Shown one piece after another: positions 1-30,337 of a stretch of 30,373 nt of DNA. A program made the position numbers and the translations under genes. Source of the DNA: a virus; UHGV virus genome UHGV-0127428; one strand, given 5' to 3'. The notes beneath the pieces are model-generated. The model saw only the letters and a program-made list of their open reading frames with translations. It did no database searches and was not told the origin of the DNA. Positions within the stretch are counted from its first letter, which is position 1. Each line of letters starts with the position of its first letter.

Positions 1-2
1 CA

Positions 3-30
3 ATAAAAAAGGCACCATTTCTGGTGCCCT
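3..30 (-). terminator. rho-independent terminator-like hairpin downstream of tail gene I
   Basis: Inverted repeat ggcacca / tggtgcc (11-17 and 22-28) with a 4-nt loop; on the minus strand the stem is followed by a T-run (complement of the A-run at 5-10). Sits about 20 nt after the stop of the minus-strand ORF ending at 50. Confidence 0.5.
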
Positions 31-49
31 TATATGGGTTATAACAATT

Positions 50-442
50 TCAACGAATACTGATGCCGGAAGCGACTTTTTTGGTCACAATCACCGTACA
101 GTCGGTGATATTACCTGCCCACTGATTGCCTTTATGGAAAACCTTAAACTCCAGAGTGACGCTTCCCCTGCCACTCGGCATATCAATAATCGCACTGTAG
201 CTACCGGGAAGACGGGCTGATAATTCATTTTCGCCTGCATCACGCCCGGCAATGCGCACCTGATACCAGCCCTCATTCAGTTTCTGGCGAAACGACGGAA
301 GCTGCGTGGCCAGCGCCCGGATGGCTTCGGCCCCCGTTTTCACACGAAGGTCGATGCGGTGGCCAAATCGTTGTAAATCCCCGTAAAGGCAGATGCGTGC
401 CATGCCCGGTGACGCCAGAGGGAGTGTGTGCGTCGCTGCCAT
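50..442 (-). CDS. I: lambda-like tail assembly protein I, N-terminal portion; C-terminus divergent and possibly truncated
   Basis: The N-terminal ~100 aa (MAATHTLPLASPGMARICLYGDLQRFG...) match my recollection of lambdoid gpI. The ORF is shorter than lambda I as I recall it and is followed immediately by a terminator rather than a J-like gene. Confidence 0.6.
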   Translation of the reverse strand: MAATHTLPLASPGMARICLYGDLQRFGHRIDLRVKTGAEAIRALATQLPSFRQKLNEGWYQVRIAGRDAGENELSARLPGSYSAIIDMPSGRGSVTLEFKVFHKGNQWAGNITDCTVIVTKKVASGISIR

Positions 443-1092
443 TTGTCGGTATACCTCTCTCGTTTGCTCAGTTGTTCAGGAATATGGTGCAACAGCTCGC
501 CGTCGCCGCAGTAAATGGCGGCATGATTCGGCACCGATGAACCAAAACAGCACAGCAGCACATCGCCCGGTTGTGCTGATGACAACGGCACCTGATACAG
601 CCCTGTGGCCTCCAGATTATCCAGATAGAGATTCTGACCGTGACGCCACCAGTCATCCCCGCGATGAAAATCCGGCATCTCAATTCCCGCCAGATGGTAA
701 GCATCCCGGAACAGCGTGTAACAGTCCGTCACCCCGTGCTCAAAGCGCCGCCCGGTGAGATGCGGCACACAGCGGAATTTATGAATCGCCCCCCGGCAGA
801 CCAGCCACCACGGCAAATCACTCTGCACCTGCAGCCGCCGGTCGGTCTCACTCAGCCAGGGCAGACCACCGGGGTGGCTGTGGACCAGCGCCACAATCTC
901 ACCCTGCATCTCTGCCCGCAGCCAGTCCTCCGGCGACATCCGGAAATACTCCTCCGGCTCACCGGAGATATTCACGCAGGGAAAATATCTTTCCCCCTCC
1001 GGTGTTCTCACCACGAAGCCGCACGACTCCGCTGGCGCACATCGCCGGGCGTGCGCCAGAATCGCTGATTCTGTCTCTGTCATGGGATTCAC
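340..1092 (-). CDS. K: lambda-like tail assembly protein K (JAMM/MPN plus NlpC/P60 domains)
   Basis: HSHPGG...SETD JAMM-type metal-binding motif and a C-terminal Cys-containing NlpC/P60-like region (TDCYTLF), typical of gpK; sits between L and I as in lambda. The true start may be the internal ATG at 1083 (MTETESAIL...). Confidence 0.8.
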   Translation of the reverse strand: MNPMTETESAILAHARRCAPAESCGFVVRTPEGERYFPCVNISGEPEEYFRMSPEDWLRAEMQGEIVALVHSHPGGLPWLSETDRRLQVQSDLPWWLVCRGAIHKFRCVPHLTGRRFEHGVTDCYTLFRDAYHLAGIEMPDFHRGDDWWRHGQNLYLDNLEATGLYQVPLSSAQPGDVLLCCFGSSVPNHAAIYCGDGELLHHIPEQLSKRERYTDKWQRRTHSLWRHRAWHASAFTGIYNDLATASTFV

Positions 1093-1727
1093 TGCGAAAG
1101 TTTGTTAATGGAAAGGAAGCCGCCAAAGTTGCCGACGTTATTGCGAAACTTACAGCCGCTCAGGCATTTGCTGCATTTATCCTTCGTGATATCGGACGTC
1201 GGCTGATCATATTCATCCGCGACCGCCGGACCGTGATAACCGCACTCATCACCGCGATAGGTCCAGGTGCAGGTGTTGGCCAGCATGATACGTCCCGGAA
1301 AAACGGCACCGTCCGTTTCCGTCGGCGTGGACAGTACAAAAGAGGCACTCACCGCGCTCAGTTCGCTGCACTGCTCGATGCGCCAGCGGCTGATCACCTC
1401 CTGCTCCGGATCGGCGTCACTGTTTCCGTTGACGAAGTTCACCGCATCCAGAAAACGGGCGTAAACCTTACGCCGGACCACCGTTCCTCCGACCAGACTC
1501 TGCAGGTCTTCCGCCATCCCGGTGACCATGCCGTGCAGGTTAGAAACCGTCAGTGTCGGACGGGCAGCACTGCCCTTGCCGTTCAGTTCAAATCCCGTCC
1601 CCTGAATGGGATACGCCTGATACTGTCGCCCCTGCCAGGTGACCGGCTCACCTTTTTCGTTCTGCTCATTACAGAAAAAGTAGCGTTCACCACCGACCTC
1701 TGTCAGATCGATTTCCCAGAGCACCAC
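1089..1727 (-). CDS. L: lambda-like minor tail protein L; canonical start codon apparently missing
   Basis: Strong gpL-like sequence (VVLWEIDLTEVGGERYFFCNEQNEKGEPVTWQGRQYQ...). The called start is a GTG. The frame stays open and gpL-like upstream (KDGIPQETHHETTRLTQSAQ) to about 1787, where AAG sits at the position expected for the ATG. Confidence 0.75.
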   Translation of the reverse strand: MVLWEIDLTEVGGERYFFCNEQNEKGEPVTWQGRQYQAYPIQGTGFELNGKGSAARPTLTVSNLHGMVTGMAEDLQSLVGGTVVRRKVYARFLDAVNFVNGNSDADPEQEVISRWRIEQCSELSAVSASFVLSTPTETDGAVFPGRIMLANTCTWTYRGDECGYHGPAVADEYDQPTSDITKDKCSKCLSGCKFRNNVGNFGGFLSINKLSQ

Positions 1728-1927
1728 CTGGGCTGACTGAGTGAGGCGTGTCGTCTCATGATGTGTTTCCTGTGGAATACCGTCCTTTTTACAAAACAGA
1801 GAAGAGCATCACCGGACGACGGGCTCATAACCCAATCCATCCGGGCGGCAGTCACCGCAGGTGTTCTTCTCTGTTTTGTGGAGAAACTAACCGACCTTGC
1901 AGGGTCGATATGATGAGGAGCAGCAAA

Positions 1928-2290
1928 ATGGCTAGCGAACGCAGTACTGATGTGCAGGCATTTATCGGGGAGCTGGACGGCGGCGTATTTGAAACCAAAA
2001 TCGGCGCAGTTCTCAGTGAAGTCGCTTCCGGTGTGATGAACACGAAAACCAAAGGTAAGGTCTCGCTCAACCTGGAAATCGAACCGTTTGATGAGAACCG
2101 AGTGAAAATCAAACACAAACTCTCATATGTTCGCCCGACTAACCGCGGGAAAATTTCCGAAGAAGACACCACCGAAACGCCGATGTATGTCAATCGCGGT
2201 GGTCGCCTGACTATTCTGCAGGAAGACCAGGGACAGTTACTGACTCTTGCCGGTGAACCTGACGGAAAACTCCGCGCAGCAGGTCGTTAA
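1928..2290 (+). CDS. yfdP: YfdP-like prophage protein (120 aa)
   Basis: ATG at 1928 preceded by gaggag; 120 aa; precedes the YfdQ/R/S/T-like genes in the same order and with the same lengths as I recall for the E. coli CPS-53 yfdPQRST cluster. Identity is from memory, not a search. Confidence 0.5.
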   Translation: MASERSTDVQAFIGELDGGVFETKIGAVLSEVASGVMNTKTKGKVSLNLEIEPFDENRVKIKHKLSYVRPTNRGKISEEDTTETPMYVNRGGRLTILQEDQGQLLTLAGEPDGKLRAAGR

Positions 2291-2355
2291 TATCGTTTTT
2301 AATTAACTGATTATTTATCTCATCACTGAATATCTTTATATAGTGAGGACTTATT

Positions 2356-3180
2356 ATGTCTCAGAACTTAGACGCAACCGCAATTAATCAAATCCATGCC
2401 CTTATTTCTGCTCAGGGTGTTAATGAAATTATCAGTAAGATTGGTGCCGATGCTGTGGCATTGCCTGAGAATTTCCGCATTCATGATCTGGAAAAATTTA
2501 ATTTAAATCGCTTCCGTTTCCGTGGTGCGCTTTCCACTGCCAGCATCGATGACTTTACCCGTTATTCTAAAGATCTTGCAGATGAAGGCACCCGCTGCTT
2601 TATCGATGCTGATAATATGCGTGCCGTCAGTGTGCTTAACCTGGGTACTATTGATGAACCAGGTCACGCAGATAACACCGCCACACTCAAACTGAAAAAG
2701 ACAGCACCGTTCTCTGCTCTGTTGTCTGTTAACGGCGAGCGTAACTCCCAGAAGTCACTAGCAGAATGGATTGAAGACTGGGCCGACTATCTTGTGGGCT
2801 TTGATGCTAATGGTGACGCTATTCAGGCAACAAAAGCGGCTGCGGCTGTCCGTAAAATCACGATTGAAGCAAACCAGACCGCTGATTTTGAAGATAATGA
2901 CTTCAGCGGCAAACGCTCCCTGATGGAGTCTGTCGAAGCGAAGACCAAAGACATTATGCCAGTGGCATTTGAATTTAAATGCGTTCCGTTTGAAGGTCTG
3001 AAAGAACGTCCGTTTAAATTACGCCTCAGTATTATCACTGGCGATCGTCCTGTACTGGTTCTGCGCATTATTCAGCTGGAGGCGGTGCAGGAAGAAATGG
3101 CTAACGAATTTCGTGATCTGCTTGTTGAGAAATTCAAGGACAGCAAAGTAGAAACCTTTATTGGTACTTTCACCGCCTGA
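2356..3180 (+). CDS. yfdQ: YfdQ-like protein (DUF2303 family, 274 aa)
   Basis: 274-aa ORF with a clean ATG start; length and operon position match YfdQ of the CPS-53 cluster. No catalytic motif recognised. Confidence 0.6.
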
Positions 3181-3307
3181 TTTCATTACTGCAAATGCCC
3201 CTGCGGGGGCATTTATGGAAACGTAATTTACTCAATAATCGCCGGATGGTGAGGGATTCTTTTTGCCAGAATTCAGCGCGGTGCAGCGCATATACGTGGA
3301 GAACAAA

Positions 3308-3844
3308 ATGTCATTTATTAAAACTTTTTCCGGGAAGCATTTTTATTATGACAGGATAAATAAAGACGACATCGATATTAACGATATCGCGGTTTCCCTT
3401 TCAAATATCTGTCGCTTTGCCGGTCATCTTTCGCACTTCTACAGCGTCGCCCAACATGCGGTTCTTTGCAGCCAGCTGGTGCCGCAGGAATTTGCTTTTG
3501 AAGCGTTAATGCATGATGCAACAGAAGCGTATTGCCAGGACATTCCCGCACCACTGAAACGCCTTCTTCCTGACTATAAACAAATGGAAGAAAAAATAGA
3601 CGCCGTAATCCGTGAGAAATACGGGTTACCCCCAGTTATGAGTACGCCCGTGAAATATGCCGATCTCATCATGCTGGCAACCGAACGCCGCGATCTCGGG
3701 CTTGATGATGGCTCTTTCTGGCCTGTACTGGAAGGTATCCCGGCAACAGAGATGTTCAACGTGATTCCACTGGCACCGGGCCATGCCTACGGGATGTTTA
3801 TGGAACGCTTTAACGAGTTATCGGAGTTACGCAAATGCGCATGA
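3308..3844 (+). CDS. yfdR: YfdR-like HD-domain phosphohydrolase (5'-deoxynucleotidase family)
   Basis: Start chosen at the ATG at 3308 (MSFIKTFSGKHFYYD...), giving 178 aa. HD signature present (ALMHDATEAY). Matches the recalled YfdR N-terminus and length. Confidence 0.7.
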   Translation: MSFIKTFSGKHFYYDRINKDDIDINDIAVSLSNICRFAGHLSHFYSVAQHAVLCSQLVPQEFAFEALMHDATEAYCQDIPAPLKRLLPDYKQMEEKIDAVIREKYGLPPVMSTPVKYADLIMLATERRDLGLDDGSFWPVLEGIPATEMFNVIPLAPGHAYGMFMERFNELSELRKCA

Positions 3845-4197
3845 ATATTTTCGAAATGGAAGGGTTTCTTCGTGGGAGATGTGTACCGCGAGATCTGAAA
3901 GTAAATGAAACAGATGCTGAATACCTGGTGCGTAAATTCGATGCGCTTGAAGCTAAATGTGCAGCACAGGAAAACAAAGTAATACCAGTGTCAACTGAAC
4001 TGCCACCAGCAAATGAAAGTGTTTTGTTATTCGATGCTAACGGAGAAGGCTGGCTAATTGGCTGGCGTTCTCTCTGGTACACCTGGGGACAAAAAGAAAC
4101 CGGAGAATGGCAGTGGACATTTCAGGTCGGGGACCTTGAAAACGTCAATATCACTCACTGGGCAGTAATGCCAAAAGCACCGGAGGCTGGAGCATAA
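3835..4197 (+). CDS. yfdS: YfdS-like protein (120 aa)
   Basis: 120-aa ORF overlapping the yfdR stop; position and length match YfdS. A paralogous N-terminal domain recurs at 25288. Confidence 0.5.
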   Translation: MRMNIFEMEGFLRGRCVPRDLKVNETDAEYLVRKFDALEAKCAAQENKVIPVSTELPPANESVLLFDANGEGWLIGWRSLWYTWGQKETGEWQWTFQVGDLENVNITHWAVMPKAPEAGA

Positions 4198-4502
4198 TGA
4201 CCACTTTTACCGACAAAGAACTGATTAAAGAAATTAAAGAGCGTATCAGCAGCCTTGACGTGCGAGACGATATTGAGCGCCGTGCTTATGAAATCGCACT
4301 CCTATCTCTGGAAGTAGAACCAGATGAACGCGAAGCTTATGAATTATTCATGGAAAAGCGTTTCGGTGACTTAGTAGATCGTCGGAGAGCAAAAAACGGC
4401 GATAACGAATACATGGCATGGGATATGACTCTCGGTTGGATCGTCTGGCAGCAACGAGCTGGTATCCATTTTTCAACAATGTCACAGCAAGAGGTGAAAT
4501 AA
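4197..4502 (+). CDS. yfdT: YfdT-like protein (101 aa)
   Basis: 101-aa ORF; ATG overlaps the stop of the previous gene; position and length match YfdT. Confidence 0.5.
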   Translation: MTTFTDKELIKEIKERISSLDVRDDIERRAYEIALLSLEVEPDEREAYELFMEKRFGDLVDRRRAKNGDNEYMAWDMTLGWIVWQQRAGIHFSTMSQQEVK

Positions 4503-4852
4503 TGGAGCCATACAGCCTCACACTCGATGAGGCCTGTCATTTTCTCAAGATATCCAGACCGACTGCCATTAACTGGATACGCACAGGGCGTCTTCAGGCA
4601 ACACGCAAAGATCCCACTAAGAATAAATCTCCTTACCTCACAACACGACAAGCCTGCATTGCGGCTCTTCAGTCTCCGCTGCATACTGTCCAGGTGAGCG
4701 CGGGTGATGGCATAACAGAGGAAAGAAAATGTCACTCTTCCGCAGAGGTGAAATATGGTACGCCAGTTTCACATTGCCGAACGGTAAAAGATTTAAACAG
4801 TCTCTTGGAACAAAGGACAAAAGGCAGGCGACAGAACTCCATGACAAGCTAA
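4502..4852 (+). CDS. xis: P22-type excisionase (Xis)
   Basis: ATG at 4502 overlaps the yfdT stop (taATGg). The 116-aa product ([38 protein letters not shown]...) resembles P22-family Xis and overlaps the int start, as is typical. Confidence 0.7.
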
Positions 4853-5892
4853 AGGCTGAAGCATGGCGGGTCAGCAAACTTGGTGAAATACCTGATATAA
4901 CGTTCGAGGAAGCGTGTGTCAGGTGGCTTGAAGAGAAAGCACATAAAAAATCACTGGACGATGACAAAAGCCGGATCGGATTCTGGCTTCAACATTTCGC
5001 AGGGATGCAACTAAGAGACATCACTGAATCAAAAATTTATTCAGCGATGCAGAAAATGACAAACCGGCGTCATGAGGAAAACTGGAAACTCAGGGCAGAA
5101 GCATGCAGAAAAAAAGGGAAACCTGTTCCAGAATACACGCCAAAACCAGCGTCCGTTGCAACGAAGGCTACGCATCTTTCATTTATAAAGGCCCTGCTAA
5201 GAGCCGCAGAGCGTGAATGGAAAATGCTTGATAAGGCACCAATTATTAAAGTGCCTCAACCGAAGAATAAACGTATCCGCTGGCTGGAGCCTCATGAAGC
5301 ACAAAGGCTGATTGATGAATGTCCGGAGCCATTAAAGTCTGTTGTTGAATTTGCACTGGCAACAGGCTTAAGACGCTCGAACATCATCAACCTTGAATGG
5401 CAACAAATAGACATGCAGCGCCGGGTGGCATGGATAAACCCGGAAGAGAGTAAATCAAACCGCGCAATTGGCGTTGCGCTGAATGATACTGCATGTCGCG
5501 TATTGAAAAAACAAATCGGGAATCATCACCGTTGGGTATTTGTTTACAAGGAAAGCTGTACCAAACCAGACGGAACGAAAGCGCCAACGGTCAGGAAGAT
5601 GCGGTATGACGCAAACACAGCCTGGAAAGCGGCGCTGAGACGAGCAGGTATTGATGATTTCAGATTTCACGACTTGAGACACACCTGGGCAAGTTGGCTG
5701 GTTCAAGCCGGAGTCCCGTTGTCAGTGTTACAGGAAATGGGAGGCTGGGAGTCTATCGAAATGGTTCGTCGATATGCTCACCTCGCACCTAATCACCTTA
5801 CCGAACACGCACGGCAAATAGACTCGATCCTGAACCCATCGGTCCCAAATTTGTCCCAGTCAAAAAATAAGGAAGGTACTAATGATGTGTAA
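4729..5892 (+). CDS. int: P22-type tyrosine integrase
   Basis: 387 aa; the N-terminus [27 protein letters not shown] matches my recollection of P22 Int. Catalytic signature present ([29 protein letters not shown]). Stop lies immediately before an att core copy. Confidence 0.9.
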
Positions 5893-5925
5893 CTTATTGA
5901 TTTAAATGGTGCCGATAATAGGAGT
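5893..5925. repeat. att core copy 1 (short): cttattgattt-aaa-tggtgccgataataggagt
   Basis: Its 19 nt tggtgccgataataggagt equal the reverse complement of the 3' end of tRNA-Thr (ACTCCTATTATCGGCACCA). Similarity to the tRNA stops after ggagt, where element B sequence begins. Same flank motif as copies at 18458 and 30324. Confidence 0.7.
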
Positions 5926-6067
5926 AAAACACTCGATTAATCTCGTGTTAATGCCATCACCTACGACCATTACTAATTGATTGAATCTTATAGAAAAATC
6001 ATCATTTTCTATGCGTCACAATCAATTTTCACATTACAAACGCTCCGACACTTTAGCCGGAGATTTT

Positions 6068-7345
6068 ATGAGATACAAGCCTAACCAATACTTAATCTGT
6101 GATTCTTACGGTAACTACTATTTAAGGATCACGCTGCCTGTGTATATGCAGCCCTTTTTTGAAGGAAAAAGGACGTTTGTCAGAAGTCTACACACAAGTA
6201 ATCTTCGTGTTGCACGTAGAAAGCGTGATCAGATTGCAGATGAATACCATTGCTTACGGGAGAGTGTTGCCCCTGTAAACAGCACAATAGAAAACACGCT
6301 GGAACTGTTACGCAGTAAGGCTAAATACGCCAAAACAGCTACCAGAGTGCAAGATACAGCGTCTTCGTGTCCGTCATTGCTTAAAATTCTTGAAATCTAC
6401 CTGACAATTAACAGCACGAAGAAGAAGCCAGCCACTTTAGCTAAGGCAAGAAAAGCGGTAGAGATGTTTCTCTCCTACCGTAAAAAGCCTGATATTGCAT
6501 TGCAAGATGTAAGCCGCACCACTGTTACAGGCTGGATTGAACACATGCAAAAAACTCTTTCACAACAATCAATTGCAAATTATATCAGTCCAATGGCCCA
6601 GCTATGGGAATTAGCTTCATCACGTTACCACGATGCGCCAGAAAGGGCGCTCTCCCCCTGGCGAGGGCATAGGCTTGATGTGGCACAAAGTAGAGAGAGC
6701 TACGAGGCATTTTCTAACAAAGAGCTATTGCAGGTGTTGCAAGTATTTTCCGGTAATTCAGCAGAAAACAAAGAAATGACGGCTTTGTGTCTTATCGGTT
6801 TATATACAGGTATGCGGATCAATGAGATAGCAAGTCTCACAATAGACGATGTGAAAGAGATCGAAGGTGTGCTGTGTTTTGAAATCACACAGGGAAAAAC
6901 GAAAGCTGCGGCACGTCTTGTGCCTGTGCATAGCCTTATCACTCCATTGGTGTTATCTCTTCGTGAAAAGCCTCACAATGGCTTTTTGTTCTATCACGCC
7001 AGCATTACAGAACGTGCTGACGGTAAACGCTCTACGTGGCATACACAACGATTTACAAGAGCTAAACGAAAGGCTTTAGGGGAAAAGGGAACAGAAAGGA
7101 AAGTGTTTCATTCTCTGAGACACGGAGTAGCACAGCTTCTTGATCGAAATCAAATTCCAGAGGACCGCATAGCTTTAATGTTGGGCCATCAGCGCGGCAA
7201 TACAGAAACATTCCGCACATATAGCAAGAATGCAGCTTCTCCAGTAGAGCTTAAAAAATATATTGAGCTTTTACGCTACCCTGAAATAGAGAAAGGCTTA
7301 TCAATCAATAAAAAATCAAATTTAAGGCGTAAAACAACGCTATAG
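6068..7345 (+). CDS. tyrosine recombinase/integrase of element B, distinct from the P22-type integrases
   Basis: Catalytic signature present: GMRINEIASL (Arg), HSLRHGVAQL (HxxR), GHQRGNTETFRTYSK (Tyr). Start chosen at the ATG at 6068 with ggag 6 nt upstream; the tool's TTG start at 5981 is less likely. Lies immediately inside the left boundary of element B. Confidence 0.75.
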   Translation: MRYKPNQYLICDSYGNYYLRITLPVYMQPFFEGKRTFVRSLHTSNLRVARRKRDQIADEYHCLRESVAPVNSTIENTLELLRSKAKYAKTATRVQDTASSCPSLLKILEIYLTINSTKKKPATLAKARKAVEMFLSYRKKPDIALQDVSRTTVTGWIEHMQKTLSQQSIANYISPMAQLWELASSRYHDAPERALSPWRGHRLDVAQSRESYEAFSNKELLQVLQVFSGNSAENKEMTALCLIGLYTGMRINEIASLTIDDVKEIEGVLCFEITQGKTKAAARLVPVHSLITPLVLSLREKPHNGFLFYHASITERADGKRSTWHTQRFTRAKRKALGEKGTERKVFHSLRHGVAQLLDRNQIPEDRIALMLGHQRGNTETFRTYSKNAASPVELKKYIELLRYPEIEKGLSINKKSNLRRKTTL

Positions 7346-7352
7346 ACGTAAT

Positions 7353-7386
7353 AAAGAGGCTTCAATATAGACTGATGCCTCTTTTA
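7353..7386. terminator. bidirectional terminator hairpin between convergent genes
   Basis: Stem agaggc / gcctct (7355-7360 and 7377-7382) with a T-run after it; lies between the end of the integrase (+) and the end of the 219-aa gene (-). Confidence 0.45.
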
Positions 7387-7425
7387 TGATTATCTCGTTA
7401 CAGAGCGTTTCATAGGCGTTTAAGG

Positions 7426-8085
7426 CTATTGTTTAAATACTGGCGTTACAACGTCTTGCCCTGGGCTTTTTGTATTTACCTGCATTTTAATCTGTCCCCC
7501 TACAGATTTATTTGGTGCTGTTTTTACCGCAATTGCGCTTGTAGTTGCTTTAGAGACAAGACGGATTTGCTCAAAATCAAGAGTAAACAATAGGCTTTCG
7601 CTTGCTTCTTCTTCATAAGACATGCCAACTAACACAACGTTGTCATAATTTTTTAACTCAGTGACAAGTAGGAAAGGTTGGCGACTGTCCATCAACTGAT
7701 TTAGGTATTCAAGCATAAGCATACGTCGATTGCCGTTAATTCCCGCATTCTTAATCATATCGGGATTGAGCTTCAATACGGTTTCAGAGATACGCCCCTG
7801 TAATGTGAACTTGTTATTCCGTATTTGAACATGATCACTAACTTCTGATCCTGATTCGACGGCATAGCTTGTAACGTCTGCATTTCGGCTAACTTTCGTC
7901 GATTCCACGCTATCAAATGATAATGCCTGGTAGTCATTGTAAGCAGCATTTGCACCACTGCCGAGGTTAGAGGTAATGATCGCAAAGCCGTTACCCCCTT
8001 TAGTTGTTCTACCGTTGCTATCGTTGCTTGTGCTGTTGATTTTCGCCTCAGTCGGGCGACCAATGGTTAACGGACCCATTGCCAT
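7426..8085 (-). CDS. hypothetical protein (219 aa), last gene of the capsid-like operon
   Basis: Good RBS (aagga) upstream of the ATG at 8085; Gly/Asn/Ser-rich N-terminus; no recognisable motif. Confidence 0.5.
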   Translation of the reverse strand: MAMGPLTIGRPTEAKINSTSNDSNGRTTKGGNGFAIITSNLGSGANAAYNDYQALSFDSVESTKVSRNADVTSYAVESGSEVSDHVQIRNNKFTLQGRISETVLKLNPDMIKNAGINGNRRMLMLEYLNQLMDSRQPFLLVTELKNYDNVVLVGMSYEEEASESLLFTLDFEQIRLVSKATTSAIAVKTAPNKSVGGQIKMQVNTKSPGQDVVTPVFKQ

Positions 8086-8132
8086 AATTTGTAATCCTTA
8101 TTTAAGGGGGCTAAACTGCCCCACAGTGATGA

Positions 8133-9974
8133 TTAATAGGTTGACCCGCCTGACATAACACCCAGCGTTAATAGCTTGCTAAACTCAGCGGAGGATGCCT
8201 TTGATTTGAAGTCGATAAATTCGCTCAATCGTCCGGTGTCTGATTCGATAGTTAGCGGCACTTCTGCATTTACTTGTAATTCTGGATTGAAGTTAATAAC
8301 AGGTGCAAAGGTGTAAGAAGGAGCCTTGAAAGCTTGTTGTGCTGCACTCTGTTTCAGATTTGCAATGTTTTGTCCTTCGAGACTGTATTGATTTACAGCC
8401 TGCGCCCCACCTACCGTTTCTTCTGGCATAAACCAGCTTTTAATAGTGTTAACCAGGGAATTGCTGTTATCTGGCTTAGTTGTTCCGGTGCCAGCGCCTT
8501 TATATTGATCAGGAGTGAGATTAGAAAGATTCTGCTTCATTCCTTCGTTAGATAGTGGCGGTGCATCCCCTAAATTCTTTTGAATAGCTGCCGTCTTCTC
8601 GTCGTTTTTCATCAGCCAGTTGATTGCTTTCATTACAGCGTTAACCAATCCGCCGATAGCCTCGCCTAATTTGGTAAACATTGGCAGCATTGCAACCATG
8701 CTCTTTTTAAACTCTTCAATCACTTTCGGATCAAGAGATTTCATAAAGCCATCAACAAAGGCGATCCCTTGTGAGTCAGAAAGCCCACTAAGTGCATTAT
8801 TCAGTTCACGGAATTTAATAACGCTTTCCTGTTGTGCCTGCGTTACCCAGCGCCCTGATTCTCGTTGTTCTCGTGCTGATTGTTCCACTTCTTTAGCGGA
8901 GCGTGTCCAGTATTTAGAGGTGAGCATCAAATCATCAGCCAGATCTTCCAGACGACTACCGATTTGTGCATCTGAATAGCCTTTAGCTACCATTCCCTGA
9001 ACTGCTTTACTAACCAGACCAGCCGGATTATCAGCAAAGTCTTTTAGATCCTTTTTAGTTAAGAATCCTTCATTCATTAAAGTATTGATGCCGCTATCGC
9101 CGCCCTTCCATTCTCCTTTACCTGTTTTTTTATCGACTACATATTCAGCCTCATCATAGCTTTTGGTTGCACGCTCACGCACATCTTTCATCTGATCGAG
9201 ATACTTACGTTTACCTTGATCCCCCATCATTGAATCAACGCCGTTTTTGTAGGCCCATTGCTCAATATTGTTCATCTGGTTAACGTCTACACCGCCCAGC
9301 TTCGCACGGCTATACAATTCTCCCAGCGTTTCAGCACTGGCAAAGCTGTTAGTAACAAATTCAGAGGCTTTGCTCATAGCCATATATGCAGCGCCAGCGC
9401 CTAAGCCACCCAGCATAACAGCCGCAGCACCGCCGCCAATACTCCCGCTACCCTTAACAGGTGCATAGGCTTTAGCGTGAGCGTTACGATTGCCATTAAT
9501 CTTACGTTGTTGCTGTTGTAGGCGTTTCATTTGGCTATTCATACGTGCCAGACTAATAGCGCCTCTTTCATATTGGAGGGCAATTTCTCTAGCCTGTGCA
9601 ATAGCTTTATATTGTTCCGCTACAGAAAGACGGTGCATTGCACTAATGCTTGATCCAACGTCTAAAAGCTTTAATTCTGCCTTCTCTTTGCGTGCTGCCA
9701 GGGCTTTTTGTTCTCTTGCAACTACACGTTGAGCGGCTAATTGTGCTTTAGCATTAGCTTTATCAGCCTGTGCTTGCTTTTTAGCAATATCGTCTACGTC
9801 TTTTTTTGCTTTAGCGGTTGATTGTTTATGTGTCTTAACACGCAATTCTATATCTTTCACAGCCGCCATTTGTTTACGAAGTTTTTCTACTTCTGCTTTT
9901 GCTTTCTCTAATGATGGTCGGTTAACTTCGAAGGTGACAACGTTCGAGAGGCGTGCCACGTTTAGCTCTAACAT
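8133..9974 (-). CDS. tape-measure-like protein (613 aa; coiled-coil N-terminus plus Gly-rich hydrophobic segment)
   Basis: N-terminal Lys/Ala/Gln/Glu-rich predicted coiled coil (KLRKQMAAVKDIELRVK...AKAQLAAQRVVAREQ) followed by GSGSIGGGAAAVMLGGLGAGAAYMA. This architecture is typical of phage tape-measure or internal virion proteins; assignment is by composition only. Confidence 0.4.
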   Translation of the reverse strand: MLELNVARLSNVVTFEVNRPSLEKAKAEVEKLRKQMAAVKDIELRVKTHKQSTAKAKKDVDDIAKKQAQADKANAKAQLAAQRVVAREQKALAARKEKAELKLLDVGSSISAMHRLSVAEQYKAIAQAREIALQYERGAISLARMNSQMKRLQQQQRKINGNRNAHAKAYAPVKGSGSIGGGAAAVMLGGLGAGAAYMAMSKASEFVTNSFASAETLGELYSRAKLGGVDVNQMNNIEQWAYKNGVDSMMGDQGKRKYLDQMKDVRERATKSYDEAEYVVDKKTGKGEWKGGDSGINTLMNEGFLTKKDLKDFADNPAGLVSKAVQGMVAKGYSDAQIGSRLEDLADDLMLTSKYWTRSAKEVEQSAREQRESGRWVTQAQQESVIKFRELNNALSGLSDSQGIAFVDGFMKSLDPKVIEEFKKSMVAMLPMFTKLGEAIGGLVNAVMKAINWLMKNDEKTAAIQKNLGDAPPLSNEGMKQNLSNLTPDQYKGAGTGTTKPDNSNSLVNTIKSWFMPEETVGGAQAVNQYSLEGQNIANLKQSAAQQAFKAPSYTFAPVINFNPELQVNAEVPLTIESDTGRLSEFIDFKSKASSAEFSKLLTLGVMSGGSTY

Positions 9975-10008
9975 GTTAATTGTTTCCCTGTATTATGATT
10001 GTTGTTTG

Positions 10009-10206
10009 TTATTGTTTTTTAGAACAATAATATTGGATTGCTTCGAAAGTGCTGCACCCAGTCTGAAAGACACGCTGGCGCACATTATTTGCATCAATTT
10101 CTAAAAGGCGGCAAAGCGCCGATGTGTTTATAACTGATTCCTCGCTAATAGCTGCCAGTTCTTTTACAGATTTAAGAATTAATGCCTGTGAATTTTCTGT
10201 ATTCAT
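10009..10206 (-). CDS. small hypothetical protein (65 aa from the ATG at 10206)
   Basis: Internal ATG with gagag RBS; the longer 91-aa frame starts in a hydrophobic, unlikely leader. Confidence 0.3.
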   Translation of the reverse strand: MNTENSQALILKSVKELAAISEESVINTSALCRLLEIDANNVRQRVFQTGCSTFEAIQYYCSKKQ

Positions 10207-10360
10207 TGGTTTTCTCTCACATATATATATTTTTATTTGGGTTTGTAGACAGTAGAAAAACAAAAAGGGCAAGAGACAGCGCATATTTTGCTTATATGAT
10301 TATCCCTTACCCTTATTGCCCCGATTATTTCCAGACGTAGGGGAACGTCTTTAACACTTT

Positions 10361-11389
10361 TTACGCTACTGTGATCTGCACAGAGAAGCCAACACCGTGG
10401 TTAACCACAAGCGAGCTATTCTCGGTCACTACGTGCACTGCGTCGCCGCGATTCGATTCGAAAGCATAGCTGTAATACTCTTTAGCGCCTTGAGACAGCA
10501 GATCGAAGGAACTGGAAGGCGCGCCATAGATAGCTTGGTAAACACCTCCACCCTTAGCGAATTTAGGCACGGCTACAGCGTCAGCGGTCATATGTGCCAG
10601 CAGCAGCGGATCAGTCACTTTGATCAGATCAATGTTAGTTCCTGGAATGGTGAAAGTAGTTACGCCAGGCAGCAGAGAACGCACATTAAACACCACGTTT
10701 GCATCGTCTACAGGGCTTGCATATTGGAACGCATTGACCATGCCAACGCTGTAACGAATAGCGTTGAATGCCGCAGGTTTACAGAACACAACAACACGCT
10801 CAATGGTTGCAGCCTGGCTTTGTGCCTTAGCAATCATATCCGTATGCATCTGATCAAATTGCTTGAATACGGTCATTGTGTTGGTGCTGGATGCGTCAAC
10901 GGTTGCAGTCATTGGAGACACACCGAACAGAGTGCTGTAATCGATCAGAACATCGTCAGTTTTCGGGGTATGTGTCTTGCCAGAGAACAGAGAAGCCGCG
11001 AGGATGCTTTCTTTAGTGCGCTGGAATGCAACATTGTGTTTAGCGATATATTCCGCATACAGATCCGGCAGTGTTTCTTCAATAGAGCTTCCGGCTTTGC
11101 GTTTGCCTTGCACGTCCTGCGGTTTGATCAGGTCTTCACGCAGGAAGTAAGGGATTTCAATCAGCCATTCTTCCCCGTTCTCACGCTTAGTAACGTTATG
11201 CTCAGAGCTAAAACGGCTTGTAGGATGGTTGAACAGAGATTCATTGCTCTCGATAAGCTGGGAAACAGCCACTTTGTGACTTTCTACAGGCACAGGATCA
11301 GTAAAATCCAGAGTAGACAGTAGGTAATTGCGTGAGTCGTTTAATTCGAACAGTGGAGCAAGATCAACCACTTCATTTCCGATAATCAT
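10361..11389 (-). CDS. candidate major capsid protein (lambda gpE-like family)
   Basis: 342 aa, similar in size to lambda E (about 341 aa). The C-terminal ...GFSVQITVA resembles the recalled lambda E C-terminus ...FVSVQLA. It is directly preceded by a small decoration-sized gene, as D precedes E in lambda. Strong RBS. Family assignment is tentative. Confidence 0.45.
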   Translation of the reverse strand: MIIGNEVVDLAPLFELNDSRNYLLSTLDFTDPVPVESHKVAVSQLIESNESLFNHPTSRFSSEHNVTKRENGEEWLIEIPYFLREDLIKPQDVQGKRKAGSSIEETLPDLYAEYIAKHNVAFQRTKESILAASLFSGKTHTPKTDDVLIDYSTLFGVSPMTATVDASSTNTMTVFKQFDQMHTDMIAKAQSQAATIERVVVFCKPAAFNAIRYSVGMVNAFQYASPVDDANVVFNVRSLLPGVTTFTIPGTNIDLIKVTDPLLLAHMTADAVAVPKFAKGGGVYQAIYGAPSSSFDLLSQGAKEYYSYAFESNRGDAVHVVTENSSLVVNHGVGFSVQITVA

Positions 11390-11405
11390 TATTATTTATT
11401 CCTTC

Positions 11406-11780
11406 TTAAGATGTGAAAACAGAGTGGAAGCCTTCAAGCTGGAAGCCTTTAGCAGCGAGAGCTGCAATAGCAGCTTCTTTTACAGCGCCTTCGGCATTCA
11501 GGGCATCAGCTTTGATGCAAACGAGTCCGGCATTAGCACGAAGCACGTTAACTGTTTTATTTGAATCAGCAGTTACGAAGTCAGACACAACGACAAGAAC
11601 ATCAGCGCCGCTAACATATTTAGCGCCGGATGAATCAATGAGGTCGCCGCACGTTACATCTTGTGCAAGTGCTGCAAATTTTTTGCTTTCTACAGCCGCG
11701 TAAGGGTCGGTTGCATAGCTCACTACGTCAGTGATGCTTTTACGATGTGGGAAAACATCGCTTAATTTTAAAATAGCCAT
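11406..11780 (-). CDS. candidate head decoration-like protein (124 aa)
   Basis: Size and position immediately upstream of the capsid-like gene; Ala/Val/Gly-rich beta-type composition; aagga RBS. No direct motif evidence. Confidence 0.35.
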   Translation of the reverse strand: MAILKLSDVFPHRKSITDVVSYATDPYAAVESKKFAALAQDVTCGDLIDSSGAKYVSGADVLVVVSDFVTADSNKTVNVLRANAGLVCIKADALNAEGAVKEAAIAALAAKGFQLEGFHSVFTS

Positions 11781-11989
11781 TATTTTTCCTTAGATTGTTT
11801 GATTTGTTGAGCTTTAGCATTAATCAAATCTTGGTGAGATGGTTTATTGCTTTCAGCCTTATAAAGACGTTCACACTGTTTCTTTAATTCTGTGGGAGTG
11901 ATGCCAAGCGCGTAGGCTGTAGCATTCAACACATCTTCAGTTAGTGTTAACTTTTCATTGCCATATTTCAGGATAATTTCTTGTTTCAT
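11780..11989 (-). CDS. small hypothetical protein (69 aa), first gene of the capsid-like operon
   Basis: ORF whose stop overlaps the start of the next gene; lysine-rich and helical in composition. Confidence 0.35.
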   Translation of the reverse strand: MKQEIILKYGNEKLTLTEDVLNATAYALGITPTELKKQCERLYKAESNKPSHQDLINAKAQQIKQSKEK

Positions 11990-12983
11990 TTATATAACGA
12001 TTCCATTATGTTGGAATTTAATAAATCCCCCAGGCTATAAGAGGTTCAATCTGACAATAGCGAGGGGGATTTATTAACGTGTCGGGCAATACACAGCGAT
12101 AAGTAAAACCTTGAGGAGGTTTTAAACGTATCTCTAAGAATGCTTATTAAACATGCTTAAAGATAGGTTTAAAGGGTGAACAGATATTCCTGAAAACATG
12201 CTCTTAGGAAAACATGCGGAATCAATCAGGAATATCTATTCGGGGCGCGGTGGCTAACCGCTATCTTTCATGGTGTGGATGCACCAGTCAGATTTTAAGG
12301 AATCACTATTCCAATCTACTCACAGATTAAATTTTTAATAATGATTAACTACACCAACAGTAATCTACCGTTTCAGAAAATCGTTTTTACAACCAAAGCT
12401 TATAGATCCGCATTCTATAAAACCCGTTTTGCTATCAATATTTCCAAAGTTTATTGCACCATTCTTAGCTAAACTCTCTCTACTTGCGGCTAACGCTATG
12501 CAGATGATAGTTTTTTGACAACAACTTAATAGATTATTCTGTTACTAACTTCTGTCATTAAATAAGAGTTTAATGATGTTAGTAAATAGTTATAAAATAT
12601 AACTATCAGTGTAAGGCTCTTTAATGTTTTCGGACAAAATAAGGAGCTTTAGGATAAGCATAGATGAAAAATAAGAGCGGGAAGGGCAAGGAGATAACAC
12701 CTACCCGCTTTTATCAAAAATTAAGCACAATGCCTAACAACATTTATCAACACAACGTAGAAACAATCAACAATCAAAGAGGGAGTTATGATTATTCTAA
12801 AACTTCTTGAGGGGATGGAAGGTAATATTTGTTAGAGGTTAATGCCATTCAACCTTTGAGGCTATCACCTTCCATATGCAGGGATTTATGACAGGAAAAG
12901 GATTAACACCAGTCAAAACCTTTTTATCTACCCCTAATATTATTATATAATGAAATCGTTATAAATGCAAATGATTTTTATTA

Positions 12984-14116: not shown

Positions 14117-14686
14117 TTAGAATGGTATTGAATCGTATATTTCACTTTTTTCTCTTAGAGATATTATCAGATCGTGAAAAGCCTGTTTCTCAAGATAGAT
14201 ATTCTTTGAATCTAATGCTCGTTTTACAAAATCTTCTGTTTCTTCGTGCGGTGGTTTCTTCTTATCAAGGGAAAGAAGCCAAGTAAAAATTTCGGGCCGC
14301 TCAGGGAACTCTGATTCCTGTATTTCTTCTTCAACGATGATTTCGGAAACATTCAATATTCCATTAGATTCGTCTTCTTTCTCAGAAGGATCAGGTAGTG
14401 ATGATTCTCCTTTTGGAATATCAAGCACTCGATAAAGGTTAGAGCTTCCTGGTCGTGCATCTTTTATAATTAATCCCATTTCGAGCAATTTCTTAACCCT
14501 TTCTTCTGCTGCTCTTGGTGTTATGCCAAAAACATCGCCTATCTTAGCGTAAGAGGGAAATGCACGATCAAACCCTCTCAAATAGCAGTAAAGGTTTTTA
14601 GCACTATCTGTAAATTTATGCCCGTTTACTTGGCTTATTTTTAGAATCCACATAGGAACTTTTACAAATTGTTCTTCATTAATCAT
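14117..14686 (-). CDS. replication initiator-like protein (winged-HTH Rep family)
   Basis: Start set at the ATG at 14686 with aaggag 8 nt upstream. N-terminal region (LYCYLRGF...AFPSYAKIGDVFGITPRAAEERVKKLLEMGLI) is typical of plasmid/phage wHTH replication initiators; acidic C-terminus. An iteron array lies 1.3 kb upstream. Confidence 0.5.
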   Translation of the reverse strand: MINEEQFVKVPMWILKISQVNGHKFTDSAKNLYCYLRGFDRAFPSYAKIGDVFGITPRAAEERVKKLLEMGLIIKDARPGSSNLYRVLDIPKGESSLPDPSEKEDESNGILNVSEIIVEEEIQESEFPERPEIFTWLLSLDKKKPPHEETEDFVKRALDSKNIYLEKQAFHDLIISLREKSEIYDSIPF

Positions 14687-14739
14687 TAAAAATCTCCTTG
14701 ATGTAATCACGCTCTACGGCGCTACTATGGTGATAAAAA

Positions 14740-14910
14740 TCACTTGCTTTTGTTTGAGAGTGTTTCAGCCTCTCTTTTCAACATATCAAGAATGTAATCT
14801 GTAACAGTGATACGTTTACTTCTGGCTTCTTTAAACAACACCTGAAATACTTCATCAGGAATATGAAAGCAAGTGCGTGGTTGTCTTTTCTTTTCTGTAG
14901 TTTCGCTCAT
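14740..14910 (-). CDS. small ribbon-helix-helix (CopG/Arc-like) regulator candidate (56 aa)
   Basis: MSETTEKKRQPRTCFHIPDEVFQVLFKEARSKRITVTDYILDMLKREAE fits an RHH pattern (beta strand then two helices); strong RBS; immediately upstream of rep. Confidence 0.4.
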   Translation of the reverse strand: MSETTEKKRQPRTCFHIPDEVFQVLFKEARSKRITVTDYILDMLKREAETLSNKSK

Positions 14911-14931
14911 AGTTTTCTCCTTCTCCTGTTA

Positions 14932-15108
14932 TTATTCTTTCTCTGCCTTACGCAGTTCATCAATAATTTTTAGTGCATCGTCAAAGCATTTTTCACGCTC
15001 TGGATAACCACAGCGTCGCGCTGTGTTCCTGTTCATCCTTACTTTAAAACGATTAATCTCACCACGTTTCCAGGCTTCAACTACATCCTGTGGAGTAAAA
15101 TATTTCAT
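14932..15108 (-). CDS. small hypothetical protein (58 aa)
   Basis: ATG with a perfect aggagg SD; first gene of the rep operon. Confidence 0.35.
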   Translation of the reverse strand: MKYFTPQDVVEAWKRGEINRFKVRMNRNTARRCGYPEREKCFDDALKIIDELRKAEKE

Positions 15109-15960
15109 TAATTAGCCTCCTTATTCTATTTGGTTAAAAGAAAAAACACCTTGCAAGCCTTGTTGGGCTTCAAAGTGCGGTGCATTGGTTTAATTACTTA
15201 GAGGATAAGAATGTTTTCTGTCCCTAATATTACTTTACCACGACTAAAAGCTTTTGTCAACCCCTAGCCATAAAAATATTGATCATTTTCAGTGTGTTAT
15301 AATTTTTCTTAGCAATTCGTGCTCTTACGAGTGCTCCTATTCTTCCTTATTCTCTAAAACGCTCTAAAACGCCCTCTGACGAGGTTTTGATAAATACAAT
15401 ACATTCCCTTATGTAGAGGCTGTTTAGCTCGCCTACGGCTTGATTTAAGCGGTAGAATCTTATTTAACCTTCAACTACTAAAACCATTCTTTCTTTTTTG
15501 TTTGTTGTTGGTTGTTGTCTGTGTCTATGTGCTAACATCGCTAACGCGTAGCACACAAGGTTATTGCACTCGTCAGAGTATTGCACAATAGATTTTCTCT
15601 TAAATAGATTGATGATCGTTAGATGGTAGTTAGTTAATTATCGTTATGCGCACAGCGCAAGACTATTTAGCCTTACGCAAGCCGTAGGCTATTTGCACAT
15701 AGTAGATTACATATTCGTTGTGAGCGGCATTAGCGAACATAGATCTACTAACTAACATCAACAAACAAAAACTATGTGTTATGACAAGCAGTCTAACGAT
15801 TAACACTCTAACTTGTGCAAGGTTCTGGCGAATGCCAATAGATTAAGGGATAGTCAAGGACTCCCCTAACGGGTATCTCTATAATTATTCTTTAAAGATA
15901 AAAGAATTTATAAAAGATAATTTAATTGTAGTTTGATAGTTGATCTAATAGGTAACAAAA

Positions 15961-16096
15961 TTCTGTAGGGGTGGCTAACAGTTTTCTGTGGGGGTGTATA
16001 ACATAATTCTGTTAGGGTTGGGGTAACAGTTTTCTGTTAGGGTGCATATTTCTTTAAAAGTTAAGGATAACAGAATTCTGTGGGGGTAGTTCACAG
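15961..16096. repeat. iteron-like direct repeats (five copies of TTCTGTnGGGG...), candidate replication origin
   Basis: Copies start at 15961, 15984, 16007, 16032 and 16076, mostly 23-25 bp apart, consensus ttctgt(a/g/t)ggg(g/t)t; set in AT-rich noncoding DNA upstream of the rep operon. Confidence 0.6.
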
Positions 16097-16480
16097 TGAC
16101 CTACCGTTACATCCATTTATCACATAACATCTGTGCAATGATCTTCTAAAAGTGTTTCTTGCTACCAAAATTAAACATCTAAAACAGGCTTAAATTCAAT
16201 GTAATTGATGATTAATCCCTGTGTAATTCCTACGTAAAAATCCAATGAAAAGTAGCTTAAAAAGTGCAATGTTAGCTTTCTTCACTTTTACATCACTTTC
16301 GCAAAGCCGCATTACACACGGCTTACAGAGCACTATCAGAAATTGTTGATTAAAAATCAATCTATTATTTGTCGAACAAGTTTCCTTTAATGCAACAAAA
16401 AATTATTTTTTCAAAATAAACACACTATTTAATAGCTTGCTAATTTTACCAAAATGTAACTACATGATTCTCATGCAAGA

Positions 16481-16586
16481 CGTGTAGTGATAAAGCAGGC
16501 TAAATCACCACACTAAAAACCTTCGAATTTCGTAGTGAAAAAAGTCCTTTACACACCTAATCAACACGATCAATAATCACTACACG
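16481..16586. promoter_or_regulatory. candidate res-like recombinase binding region (11-bp inverted repeat)
   Basis: cgtgtagtgat (16481-16491) and its reverse complement atcactacacg (16576-16586), plus repeated atcaacac / atcaccaca motifs, immediately upstream of the serine recombinase gene. Confidence 0.25.
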
Positions 16587-16612
16587 CAAATCAACACAGA
16601 AGGAAAATGAAA

Positions 16613-17164: not shown

Positions 17165-17489
17165 TGCCTCCTGATATTTGAGAATTGTCGCTGCGTGGAC
17201 CTGACGCCGCTGATCTTCGCGTTAAACATTGATCACGTTTGCGCCGATTTCAGATAAAAAGGCAGCTATTAAGCAATACGTAACTTTTACAATTAGTGAA
17301 ATTATCTAAAACACAAGTTATATAGATGAGAAAATGAAATATTATCTTGAACAAATCAAACAAAACAACACATCATCTTGTTGACACCATGCAACGTGAA
17401 TAGTAAGCTATTATATGTGAAAATTTGCACATTGCATGCAATAAAAAATAAATGATACCTTATTGTTGTTAAATCAATAGGGGGTATCT

Positions 17490-17648: not shown

Positions 17649-17714
17649 TAATTTCACTATCAGGCGCATAAACACATCTTTGATCGCTGGATGTGTTATG
17701 CGCCTACTGGTGAT

Positions 17715-30323: not shown

Positions 30324-30337
30324 CTTATTGATTTTAA

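What the first reader, a model, noticed from the sequence alone, without database searches (positions are those of the whole stretch)
1..1927. Element A tail module is a decayed stub: L lacks its start codon and I is short and followed by a terminator
The gpL reading frame is open and L-like for about 20 codons upstream of the called GTG, but the position aligned with the lambda start Met is AAG (around 1785-1787), with a TGA a few codons further up and no SD. Gene I diverges from lambdoid I after about 100 aa and is followed by a terminator instead of J. The tail genes abut the early-left operon with only about 140 bp between them, implying a large internal deletion.
Basis: partly seen in the sequence, partly recalled or inferred. 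Interest (0 to 1): 0.35.

Follow-up and report, generated by a model that had tools for sequence, protein, structure and literature searches.

The report
Decayed lambdoid prophage tail-gene stub
Bases 1-1927 are the dead remnant of a lambda-like prophage's tail genes, left by two large deletions; this is ordinary, except that one deletion joint lies at a short TACC motif where many independent deletions in related prophages also begin.

Summary
On the minus strand lie a terminator (8-31), an in-frame I'-'J fusion (50-442), K (340-1092) and L without its first three codons and Shine-Dalgarno sequence (1089-1779).

Two corrections are needed:
- I stops resembling I at residue 78, not about 100.
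- The "divergent tail" is the last 52 codons of J, so the terminator is J's own.

Against the intact phage Ayreon (96-98% identical), two deletions made the stub. One removed 3,811 bp, from I codon 79 to near the end of J. The other removed about 25.2 kb, from L codon 3 through head, lysis, replication and immunity genes to a point 150 bp upstream of yfdP. PGAP already marks these genes as partial in three identical complete genomes. As posed, the finding is an ordinary cryptic-prophage remnant.

One side result is less ordinary. The L/early-left joint (TA, 1778-1779) sits in a TACC motif in the terminator stem of a lost STnc100-like sRNA. At least six different deletions start at that same T. 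Every other TACC in the neighbouring 225 nt is also a deletion endpoint, three of the four with two or more different partners. Four control positions gave none. The mechanism is unresolved.

The parts
8..31 (-). Intrinsic terminator downstream of J (AAGGGCACCAGAAATGGTGCCTTT + T-run)
   Evidence: 10-bp stem followed by a T-run. Homologous to the terminator annotated after J in phage Ayreon at 18454-18494.
50..210 (-). 'J: last 52 codons plus stop of the tail-tip protein J
   Evidence: Window 1-210 matches Ayreon 18492-18283 (98.1%) and the J end in L005 (99.0%). Pfam Ig_GpJ_C, profile positions 76-134 of 135. PGAP: 'phage tail tip domain-containing protein, missing N-terminus'.
209..210 (.). 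I'|'J deletion joint (AA microhomology); 3,811 bp of Ayreon (14472-18282) are missing
   Evidence: The BLAST pieces overlap at 209-210. Flanks of both partners are printed.
209..442 (-). I': first 78 codons of tail assembly protein I, fused in frame to 'J (ORF 50-442, 130 aa)
   Evidence: 86% identity to lambda I residues 1-78. Pfam Lambda_tail_I, profile 2-63 of 83. PGAP: 'tail assembly protein, missing C-terminus'.
340..1092 (-). K (JAB/MPN + NlpC/P60 tail-tip assembly protein), intact ORF
   Evidence: 95% identity to lambda K. Pfam Prok-JAB and NLPC_P60. PGAP WP_072778576.1.
1089..1779 (-). L lacking codons 1-3 and its Shine-Dalgarno sequence
   Evidence: 93% identity to lambda L residues 4-232. 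Pfam Phage_tail_L, full profile 1-206. DNA identity to the intact L of L005 and Ayreon stops at 1779.
1778..1779 (.). L'|early-left deletion joint (TA microhomology, inside a TACC motif); about 25.2 kb of phage genome are missing
   Evidence: Window 209-1779 matches Ayreon 14471-12901, and window 1778-4321 matches Ayreon 32448-29904. Intact flanks of both partners are shown.
1778..1927 (+). Leftover leader of the early-left operon: the last 5 nt of the 3' arm of an STnc100-like sRNA terminator plus its T-run (1778-1790), then a conserved long hairpin (1791-1879)
   Evidence: SfV 3801-4016 matches Rfam RF02076 at 39.5 bits, E 8.6e-7, below the gathering score of 47. The RNA fold shows the terminator. 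Hairpin 1791-1879: inverted repeat, DNA fold z = -4.4, conserved in 53 sequence variants.
1928..5892 (+). Retained early-left block: yfdP, yfdQ, yfdR, yfdS-like, yfdT, xis, int
   Evidence: PGAP annotation of the identical NZ_CP101263. 98.8% identical to phage SfV through base 5925.
5900..5925 (+). att core (3' end of tRNA-Thr thrW) closing Element A
   Evidence: Identity to the thrW-adjacent copy in NZ_CP101263 ends at 5925.

Best explanation
Bases 1-1927 are the non-functional tail-gene remnant of a defective lambdoid prophage (Element A, 1-5925). Its structural genes were mEp460/Ayreon-like. Its early-left genes and integrase were SfV-like, and it integrated at a thrW-type att site.

Two illegitimate, microhomology-level deletions produced the stub:
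1. One fused codon 78 of I in frame to the last 52 codons of J. About 3.8 kb were lost, with an AA overlap at the joint.
2. The other joined L, three codons into the gene, to a point 150 bp upstream of yfdP. About 25.2 kb were lost, with a TA overlap. It removed M through A, cos, the lysis genes, Q, the nin and replication genes, cro/cI, PL and an STnc100-like sRNA.

The late promoter, the L start signals and most of J are gone. L-K-I'J is therefore inferred to be an untranscribed relic that is still eroding in sister strains.

Shown: the joints, the homologies and the sizes by proxy. Inferred: the order of events and the lack of expression.
For: - ORFs and translation.
- The identical locus in three complete genomes is already annotated with partial I and J.
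- Intact L start in relatives.
- Lambda comparison and the coordinate map on Ayreon.
- Pfam split of the 130-aa ORF into an I domain and a J C-terminal domain.
- No sigma-70-like promoter in 1-2400.
- SfV and Kati show what lies left of base 1778 in intact phages.
- Further erosion in relatives.
Against: - K is intact and L has its complete Pfam domain, so very weak expression cannot be excluded. One route would be the ATT at 1778, which is preceded by AAGGA.
- The deletion sizes rest on a proxy phage, not the true ancestor.
- The sequence to the left of this particular window was not seen. Lom and an stf fragment are inferred from genomes identical over 1-5925.
Confidence: 0.92

Rival explanations
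1. This L family naturally starts at the GTG (1727) or the ATT (1778), and this I is a natural short variant. Nothing is truncated.
For: PGAP calls a 229-aa L from the ATT and does not flag it as a pseudogene. An SD-like AAGGA lies 4 nt upstream of that ATT.
Against: - All intact relatives carry GGAGG-N5-ATG-CAG-GAT upstream of the Ile codon, and the window's DNA diverges exactly there.
- Upstream DNA is the antisense of the SfV early-left leader.
- The I tail is 98-99% identical to the end of J.
Confidence: 0.02
2. The stub is a retained, domesticated module (a K/L-based function, or part of a satellite-like element) rather than debris.
For: The K and L ORFs are free of frameshifts. The same stub persists in several lineages.
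Against: - No promoter was found, and the L start is lost.
- M, H, most of J and all head genes are absent.
- Sister strains have deleted a further 325 bp of L or the whole early-left side.
- Near-100% identity among carriers indicates recency, not selection.
Confidence: 0.04
3. The recurrent joint at 1778 is only shared ancestry plus ascertainment bias, not a hot spot.
For: The scan pattern (not-G followed by TACCG...) can only find joints at that exact base. Several carriers are closely related.
Against: - Three types (window, L003, L004) were found without that bias.
- Four control positions scanned in the same way gave only SNPs.
- An unbiased protein search found seven more joints. Five of them lie at the other three TACC sites in 225 nt.
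- The left partners are different genes: nin region, holin, three positions in L, Q, a DUF1133 gene, capsid, methylase and a LexA-DBD gene.
Confidence: 0.15

Closest known systems
Escherichia phages Ayreon (MF807953) and mEp460 (JQ182728), intact lambdoid siphoviruses
   Same: L-K-I is 96.7-97.8% identical, the J end 98%, and the yfdP-proximal early-left block 95.8-98.2%. Gene order is the same.
   Different: They are complete 44.5-44.7 kb genomes. The window lacks 25.2 kb plus 3.8 kb of that. Its integrase and xis are SfV-type rather than Ayreon-type: the match to Ayreon stops at window 4321, while the match to SfV runs to 5925.
CPS-53 / KplE1 cryptic prophage of E. coli K-12
   Same: The same early-left module, yfdP-yfdT, is 96.6% identical over window 1909-4555. 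It is likewise a decayed prophage that has lost its immunity region.
   Different: It sits at argW with intS at the far end. It has no L-K-I remnant. Its joint lies 19 nt upstream of the yfdP ATG, not at 1778.
Bacteriophage lambda L-K-I-J tail-tip module
   Same: L is 93% identical, K 95%, and I residues 1-78 86%. Gene order and overlaps are the same.
   Different: In lambda, L has its ATG and Shine-Dalgarno sequence, I is 223 aa, and J is 1,132 aa. Here only 52 J codons remain, from a different J allele that is 39% identical to lambda's J C-terminus.
Short-homology illegitimate recombination, and sequence-selective junction resolvases such as RusA (cuts 5' of CC; PMC1636454)
   Same: The joints have 0-6 nt of microhomology. 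The recurrent ones read TA|CC. Related intact phages carry rusA.
   Different: No enzyme has been tied to these joints. The RusA link is a lead from the literature, not a test. Only 3 of 9 left partners have CC in register.

Membership tests
Lambda gpL (Pfam PF05100 Phage_tail_L) | Full-length L domain | tested here: met
   Profile 1-206 of 206, E 1.8e-99. 93% identity to lambda L residues 4-232.
Lambda gpL (Pfam PF05100 Phage_tail_L) | Native translation start (SD + ATG-Gln-Asp) as in intact phages | tested here: not met
   DNA identity to intact L ends at 1779. The first three codons and the GGAGG are replaced by unrelated DNA.
Lambda gpK (JAB + NlpC/P60) | Both catalytic domains in one uninterrupted ORF | tested here: met
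   Prok-JAB at aa 7-101 and NLPC_P60 at aa 114-227. 95% identity to lambda K.
Lambda gpI (PF06805 Lambda_tail_I) | Full-length I (about 200-223 aa, with the hydrophobic and C-terminal part) | tested here: not met
   Only residues 1-78 match, covering profile positions 2-63 of 83. The remainder is J sequence.
Lambda gpJ tail tip protein | An ORF of about 1,130-1,165 aa | tested here: not met
   Only the last 52 codons remain, matching Ig_GpJ_C profile positions 76-134 of 135.
Intact (inducible) lambdoid prophage | Immunity, replication, lysis, packaging, head and tail-shaft genes present | tested here: not met
   The window passes directly from L to the yfdP leader. Ayreon 1-12900 and 32449-44708 are absent.
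Intact (inducible) lambdoid prophage | Integrase, excisionase and att core | tested here: met
   int at 4729-5892, xis upstream of it, and the att core at 5900-5925.
Rfam RF02076 STnc100 sRNA | A match to the covariance model | tested here: not met
   The sRNA body is deleted from the window. Only its last 16 nt or so (1778-1793) remain. In SfV the match is 39.5 bits, below the gathering score of 47.

The most novel reading that the evidence does not exclude
The L/early-left joint marks a sequence-specific deletion hot spot. In SfV/mEp460-like prophages, large deletions repeatedly begin at the TA of a (G/A)TACC motif and join to unrelated sites with 0-6 nt of microhomology.
- At least six different deletions start at the T equivalent to window 1778. 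They range from about 1.5 kb (PL, cI and cro only) to about 25.5 kb.
- All four TACC sites in the adjacent 225 nt are used, three of them with two or more different partners.
- Two unrelated joints in the same island also read TA|CC or TA|ACC.
- Re-use of the site after the terminator hairpin has been lost argues that the motif matters, not the hairpin.

This would imply a motif-directed nick or break, or a motif-selective joining enzyme. Candidates are a RusA-type resolvase that cuts 5' of CC, or a recombinase that needs 2-3 nt of homology next to its cut. Such a process would repeatedly lock these prophages into the chromosome.
Probability: 0.45. Interest if true: 0.5.

Novelty: already known. 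Interest (0 to 1): 0.25.

Why it matters
As posed, the finding matters little. It is one more cryptic-prophage remnant. Its practical value is in annotation:
- The 130-aa "I" is an I'-'J fusion.
- L has no native start.
- PGAP's ATT-initiated L is probably not a real gene.

The side result could matter more. If deletions that disarm lambdoid prophages start preferentially at a defined short motif, then prophage domestication is partly mechanistically directed rather than random. That would be directly testable with lysogens of culturable phages such as Ayreon or mEp460.

Tried and rejected
- **IS-mediated deletion.** None of the 19 genomes that span the joint has an IS there. The right block has no terminal inverted repeat or second copy of its end. 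Scans found no IS-bearing allele.
- **Integrase acting at a secondary att site.** The att core (ATTTAAATGGTGCCGATAATAGGAGT, crossover in the T-loop) does not resemble the hot sites. The partners are not att sites.
- **Serine recombinase with a TA central dinucleotide.** L004 and L018 lack TA in one partner, and the GG-TA-CC polarity is opposite to gix/hix (reasoning).
- **KpnI/Acc65I-type cleavage of GGTACC.** The cut geometry does not give G|TACC, and sites 3888 and 3982 are not GGTACC.
- **Chi.** GCTGGTAC matches Chi at 6 of 8 positions, but its orientation is wrong to protect the retained side.
- **Replication stalling at the hairpin alone.** Sites 3888 and 3982 lie outside the stem. The site is also re-used after the hairpin's 5' arm is gone (window type to L004 type; L014 versus L009).
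- **Wasted scan.** One control scan was mis-specified (D includes the native G). It returned intact loci, which were then used as an unbiased sample.
- **No hits.** Both GTDB genome scans found nothing.
- **Literature.** A search found no precedent for a TACC-type hot spot.

Full report
**What is in the sequence**

On the minus strand of 1-1927 lie four features:
- an intrinsic terminator at 8-31, with a 10-bp stem and a T-run;
- a 130-aa ORF at 50-442;
- a 250-aa ORF at 340-1092;
- an L-like frame ending at 1089. It is open up to a TGA at 1809-1811, and its first canonical start is the GTG at 1727.

On the plus strand from 1928 run yfdP, yfdQ, yfdR, a yfdS-like gene, yfdT, xis and int (4729-5892).

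The first 5,925 bases are 100% identical to a locus in three complete E. coli genomes, for example NZ_CP101263. There PGAP already labels window 209-403 as "tail assembly protein, missing C-terminus". It labels window 50-211 as [quoted passage not shown]. It calls L from an ATT at 1778. In those genomes lom and an N-terminal stf fragment lie immediately to the left.

Lambda L aligns to the window frame from residue 4 to residue 232 at 93% identity. Intact close relatives read GGAGG-N5-ATG CAG GAT ATT on the coding strand (prophage L005, 98.7% identical over 209-1779; phage Ayreon, 97.8%). The window is identical to them up to base 1779 and unrelated beyond it.

The AAG at 1785-1787 is indeed the codon in register with lambda's Met, and the TGA is real. 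However, the residues K-K-D-G are not decayed L. They are the antisense strand of DNA that lies upstream of yfdP in the intact phages SfV and Kati.

So exactly three codons and the Shine-Dalgarno sequence were lost, and the Pfam L domain is complete. By chance an AAGGA lies 4 nt before the ATT that PGAP uses. I regard that start as unproven.

**Check of the claims about I and J**

The 130-aa ORF matches lambda I over residues 1-78 at 86% identity, and then stops matching. Residues 79-130 are the C-terminal 52 residues of J. The supporting evidence:
- Window 1-210 is 99.0% identical to the end of J plus the J-lom spacer in L005, and 98.1% identical to Ayreon 18492-18283.
- Pfam finds Lambda_tail_I at aa 14-78 and Ig_GpJ_C at aa 75-129.
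- The fusion is in frame and uses J's own stop.
- The terminator at 8-31 corresponds to the one annotated after J in Ayreon.

The statement "followed by a terminator instead of J" therefore needs correcting. J has been deleted internally. It has not been displaced to the left of the window.

**Size and content of the deletions**

Phage Ayreon (44,708 bp) was used as a proxy. It carries both blocks at 96-98% identity.
- The I-J deletion removes Ayreon 14472-18282, which is 3,811 bp, with an AA overlap at window 209-210.
- The second deletion removes Ayreon 32449-44708 plus 1-12900, which is 25,160 bp, with a TA overlap at window 1778-1779.

The second deletion took out the following:
- the PL region, cI and cro;
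- the replication and nin genes, and Q;
- the lysis genes and terminase;
- the head genes, and tail genes Z through M.

The ancestor was mosaic. Beyond window 4321 the match is to SfV (98.8% identical through 5925), not to Ayreon. No promoter-like site was found in 1-2400.

The stub is still eroding in sister strains:
- NZ_AP025220 has lost a further 325 bp of L (window 1453-1777).
- NZ_CP180604 has replaced everything to the right of 1779 with an autotransporter fragment. That fusion happens to give L an ATG.

The feature is ordinary.

**Context**

The att core (the 3' end of thrW) occurs three times, at 5900-5925, 18467-18492 and 30331-30356. ARAGORN finds no tRNA gene in the window. Element A is therefore the first of three elements integrated in tandem.

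K-12's CPS-53 shares the yfdP-yfdT block at 96.6% identity, but its own deletion joint lies 19 nt upstream of yfdP.

**The unexpected part: a recurrent joint**

In intact phages the sequence around the joint reads GGCGGTACCAG-N19-CTGG|TACCGTCCTTTTT. This is the terminator hairpin of an STnc100-like sRNA. SfV 3801-4016 matches RF02076 at 39.5 bits with E 8.6e-7, below the gathering score.

The retained right-hand block begins at the same T (window 1778) in the window and in these other joints:
- NZ_AP025220: L cut at window 1452.
- NZ_CP029108 and 12 similar genomes: a different chromosomal site, a different L allele, L cut near window 1560.
- Viral and metagenome contigs: joined to a nin-region gene (L009, L015), a holin gene (L010, L013), and a site just past cro (L014).

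NZ_CP180604 keeps the left side up to the same TA.

Where the intact left partner is known, its own sequence continues as follows:

| Joint | Left partner continues | Shared with TACCG... |
|---|---|---|
| window | TATCC | TA |
| L014 | TATCC | TA |
| L010 | TACAG | TAC |
| L003 | TACTG | TAC (or GTAC) |
| L009 | TACCA | TACC |

Four control scans built the same way at offsets +13, +30, +79 and +150 found only SNPs, and no joints. Among 120 unselected viral loci that carry the region, the only one lacking the hairpin is an L003-type joint.

**An unbiased test of the hot spot**

I searched the spurious minus-strand ORF that spans SfV 3854-4078 against 5.8 billion proteins. Chimeric products reveal joints wherever they fall in that stretch. 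DNA for seven of them was retrieved:

| Joint position in SfV | Right-hand sequence | Left partner(s) and microhomology |
|---|---|---|
| 3886-3888 | GGA|TACCC | Q gene (TA); DUF1133 gene (GATACC) |
| 3982 | TTG|TACCC | capsid gene; methylase gene (TACCC) |
| 3969-3973 | CGGTA|CC | LexA-DBD gene (CGGTA) |
| 3938 | CGG|CACCAC | tail fibre assembly gene (CA) |
| 3935 | not at a TACC | a small internal deletion |

TACC occurs only four times in those 225 nt, at 3888, 3972, 3982 and 4001, and every occurrence is used.

Two further joints in the same island were found without any selection:
- xis|autotransporter in NZ_AP025220 reads GGCATA|CCCCCC.
- L|autotransporter in NZ_CP180604 reads GGAATA|ACC, and the intact partner reads CTGGTA|ACC.

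Joints that do not fit the pattern also exist: I'|'J, primase|stf, L018, L169 and L170.

**What the hot spot might be**

The pattern has four features:
- a fixed TA at a TACC motif;
- variable partners;
- 0-6 nt of microhomology;
- re-use of the site after the hairpin's 5' arm has gone.

This argues for a motif-directed nick, break or joining step, rather than hairpin-induced slippage alone. I could not identify the agent.

IS elements, integrase secondary sites, serine recombinases, KpnI-type cleavage and Chi were each considered and do not fit. RusA-type resolvases, which related phages encode, prefer to cut 5' of CC at a crossover (PMC1636454). That is a lead from the literature and was not tested here. 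A literature search found no precedent.

**Also seen**

A conserved 89-nt hairpin at window 1791-1879 lies between the joint and yfdP. Its DNA fold has z = -4.4. It has a 25-bp stem in RNAalifold over 53 sequence variants. The only changes that preserve pairing are one-sided, G-U to A-U or G-C. It is not in Rfam.

**Verdict**

The break in I is at residue 78, and J's end is present.
- The feature is a known kind of thing and is already annotated as partial genes.
- Interest is low for the finding as posed. It is raised somewhat by the recurrent TA|CC joint, which deserves a proper census.

Noticed in passing
window 1778-1781 (TACC); SfV locus L007 3888, 3972, 3982, 4001: Independent prophage deletions repeatedly start at the TA of a (G/A)TACC motif. 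At least 6 different partners join at the T equivalent to window 1778. All four TACC sites in the adjacent 225 nt are used. Four control positions gave none. The mechanism is unknown.
   Followed up: yes
window 1791-1879 (+): A conserved long hairpin (25-bp stem, 89 nt) lies between the deletion joint and yfdP. Its G-U pairs make sense only on the plus strand. It has no Rfam match, and only one-sided pair-preserving changes appear among 53 variants.
   Followed up: partly
L007 (SfV) 3801-4016; deleted from the window except for about the last 16 nt (1778-1793): Intact relatives carry an STnc100/PasD-family sRNA between PL and yfdP (39.5 bits, below the gathering score of 47). The window's large deletion ends inside that sRNA's terminator stem.
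   Followed up: partly
window 5900-5925, 18467-18492, 30331-30356: There are three copies of the thrW-derived att core and no tRNA gene in the window. Three elements are therefore integrated in tandem: Element A, a second element at 5926 to about 18492 with capsid, baseplate and recombinase genes, and a third. No complete E. coli genome in the collection carries the whole arrangement.
   Followed up: partly
window 1776-1778 (-); L002 9782-9784: PGAP starts L at an ATT codon in NZ_CP101263, giving 229 aa. In NZ_CP180604 the fusion to an autotransporter fragment creates an ATG by chance (MVIPQE...). Both are probably annotation artefacts of a truncated gene.
   Followed up: partly
window 1893|3197 equivalent (SfV 4113-4116|5420) in L009, L014-L016, L163, L165, L167: Many related loci lack yfdP and yfdQ, all with the same joint just after the long hairpin and after the yfdQ terminator. 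This looks like a common mosaic allele rather than repeated deletion.
   Followed up: no
L003 (NZ_CP029108) 4282-6181: The related stub at the prfC/yjjG site carries a SLATT-domain gene next to a reverse-transcriptase gene (a retron- or DRT-like defence pair) beside its tail-fibre region.
   Followed up: no
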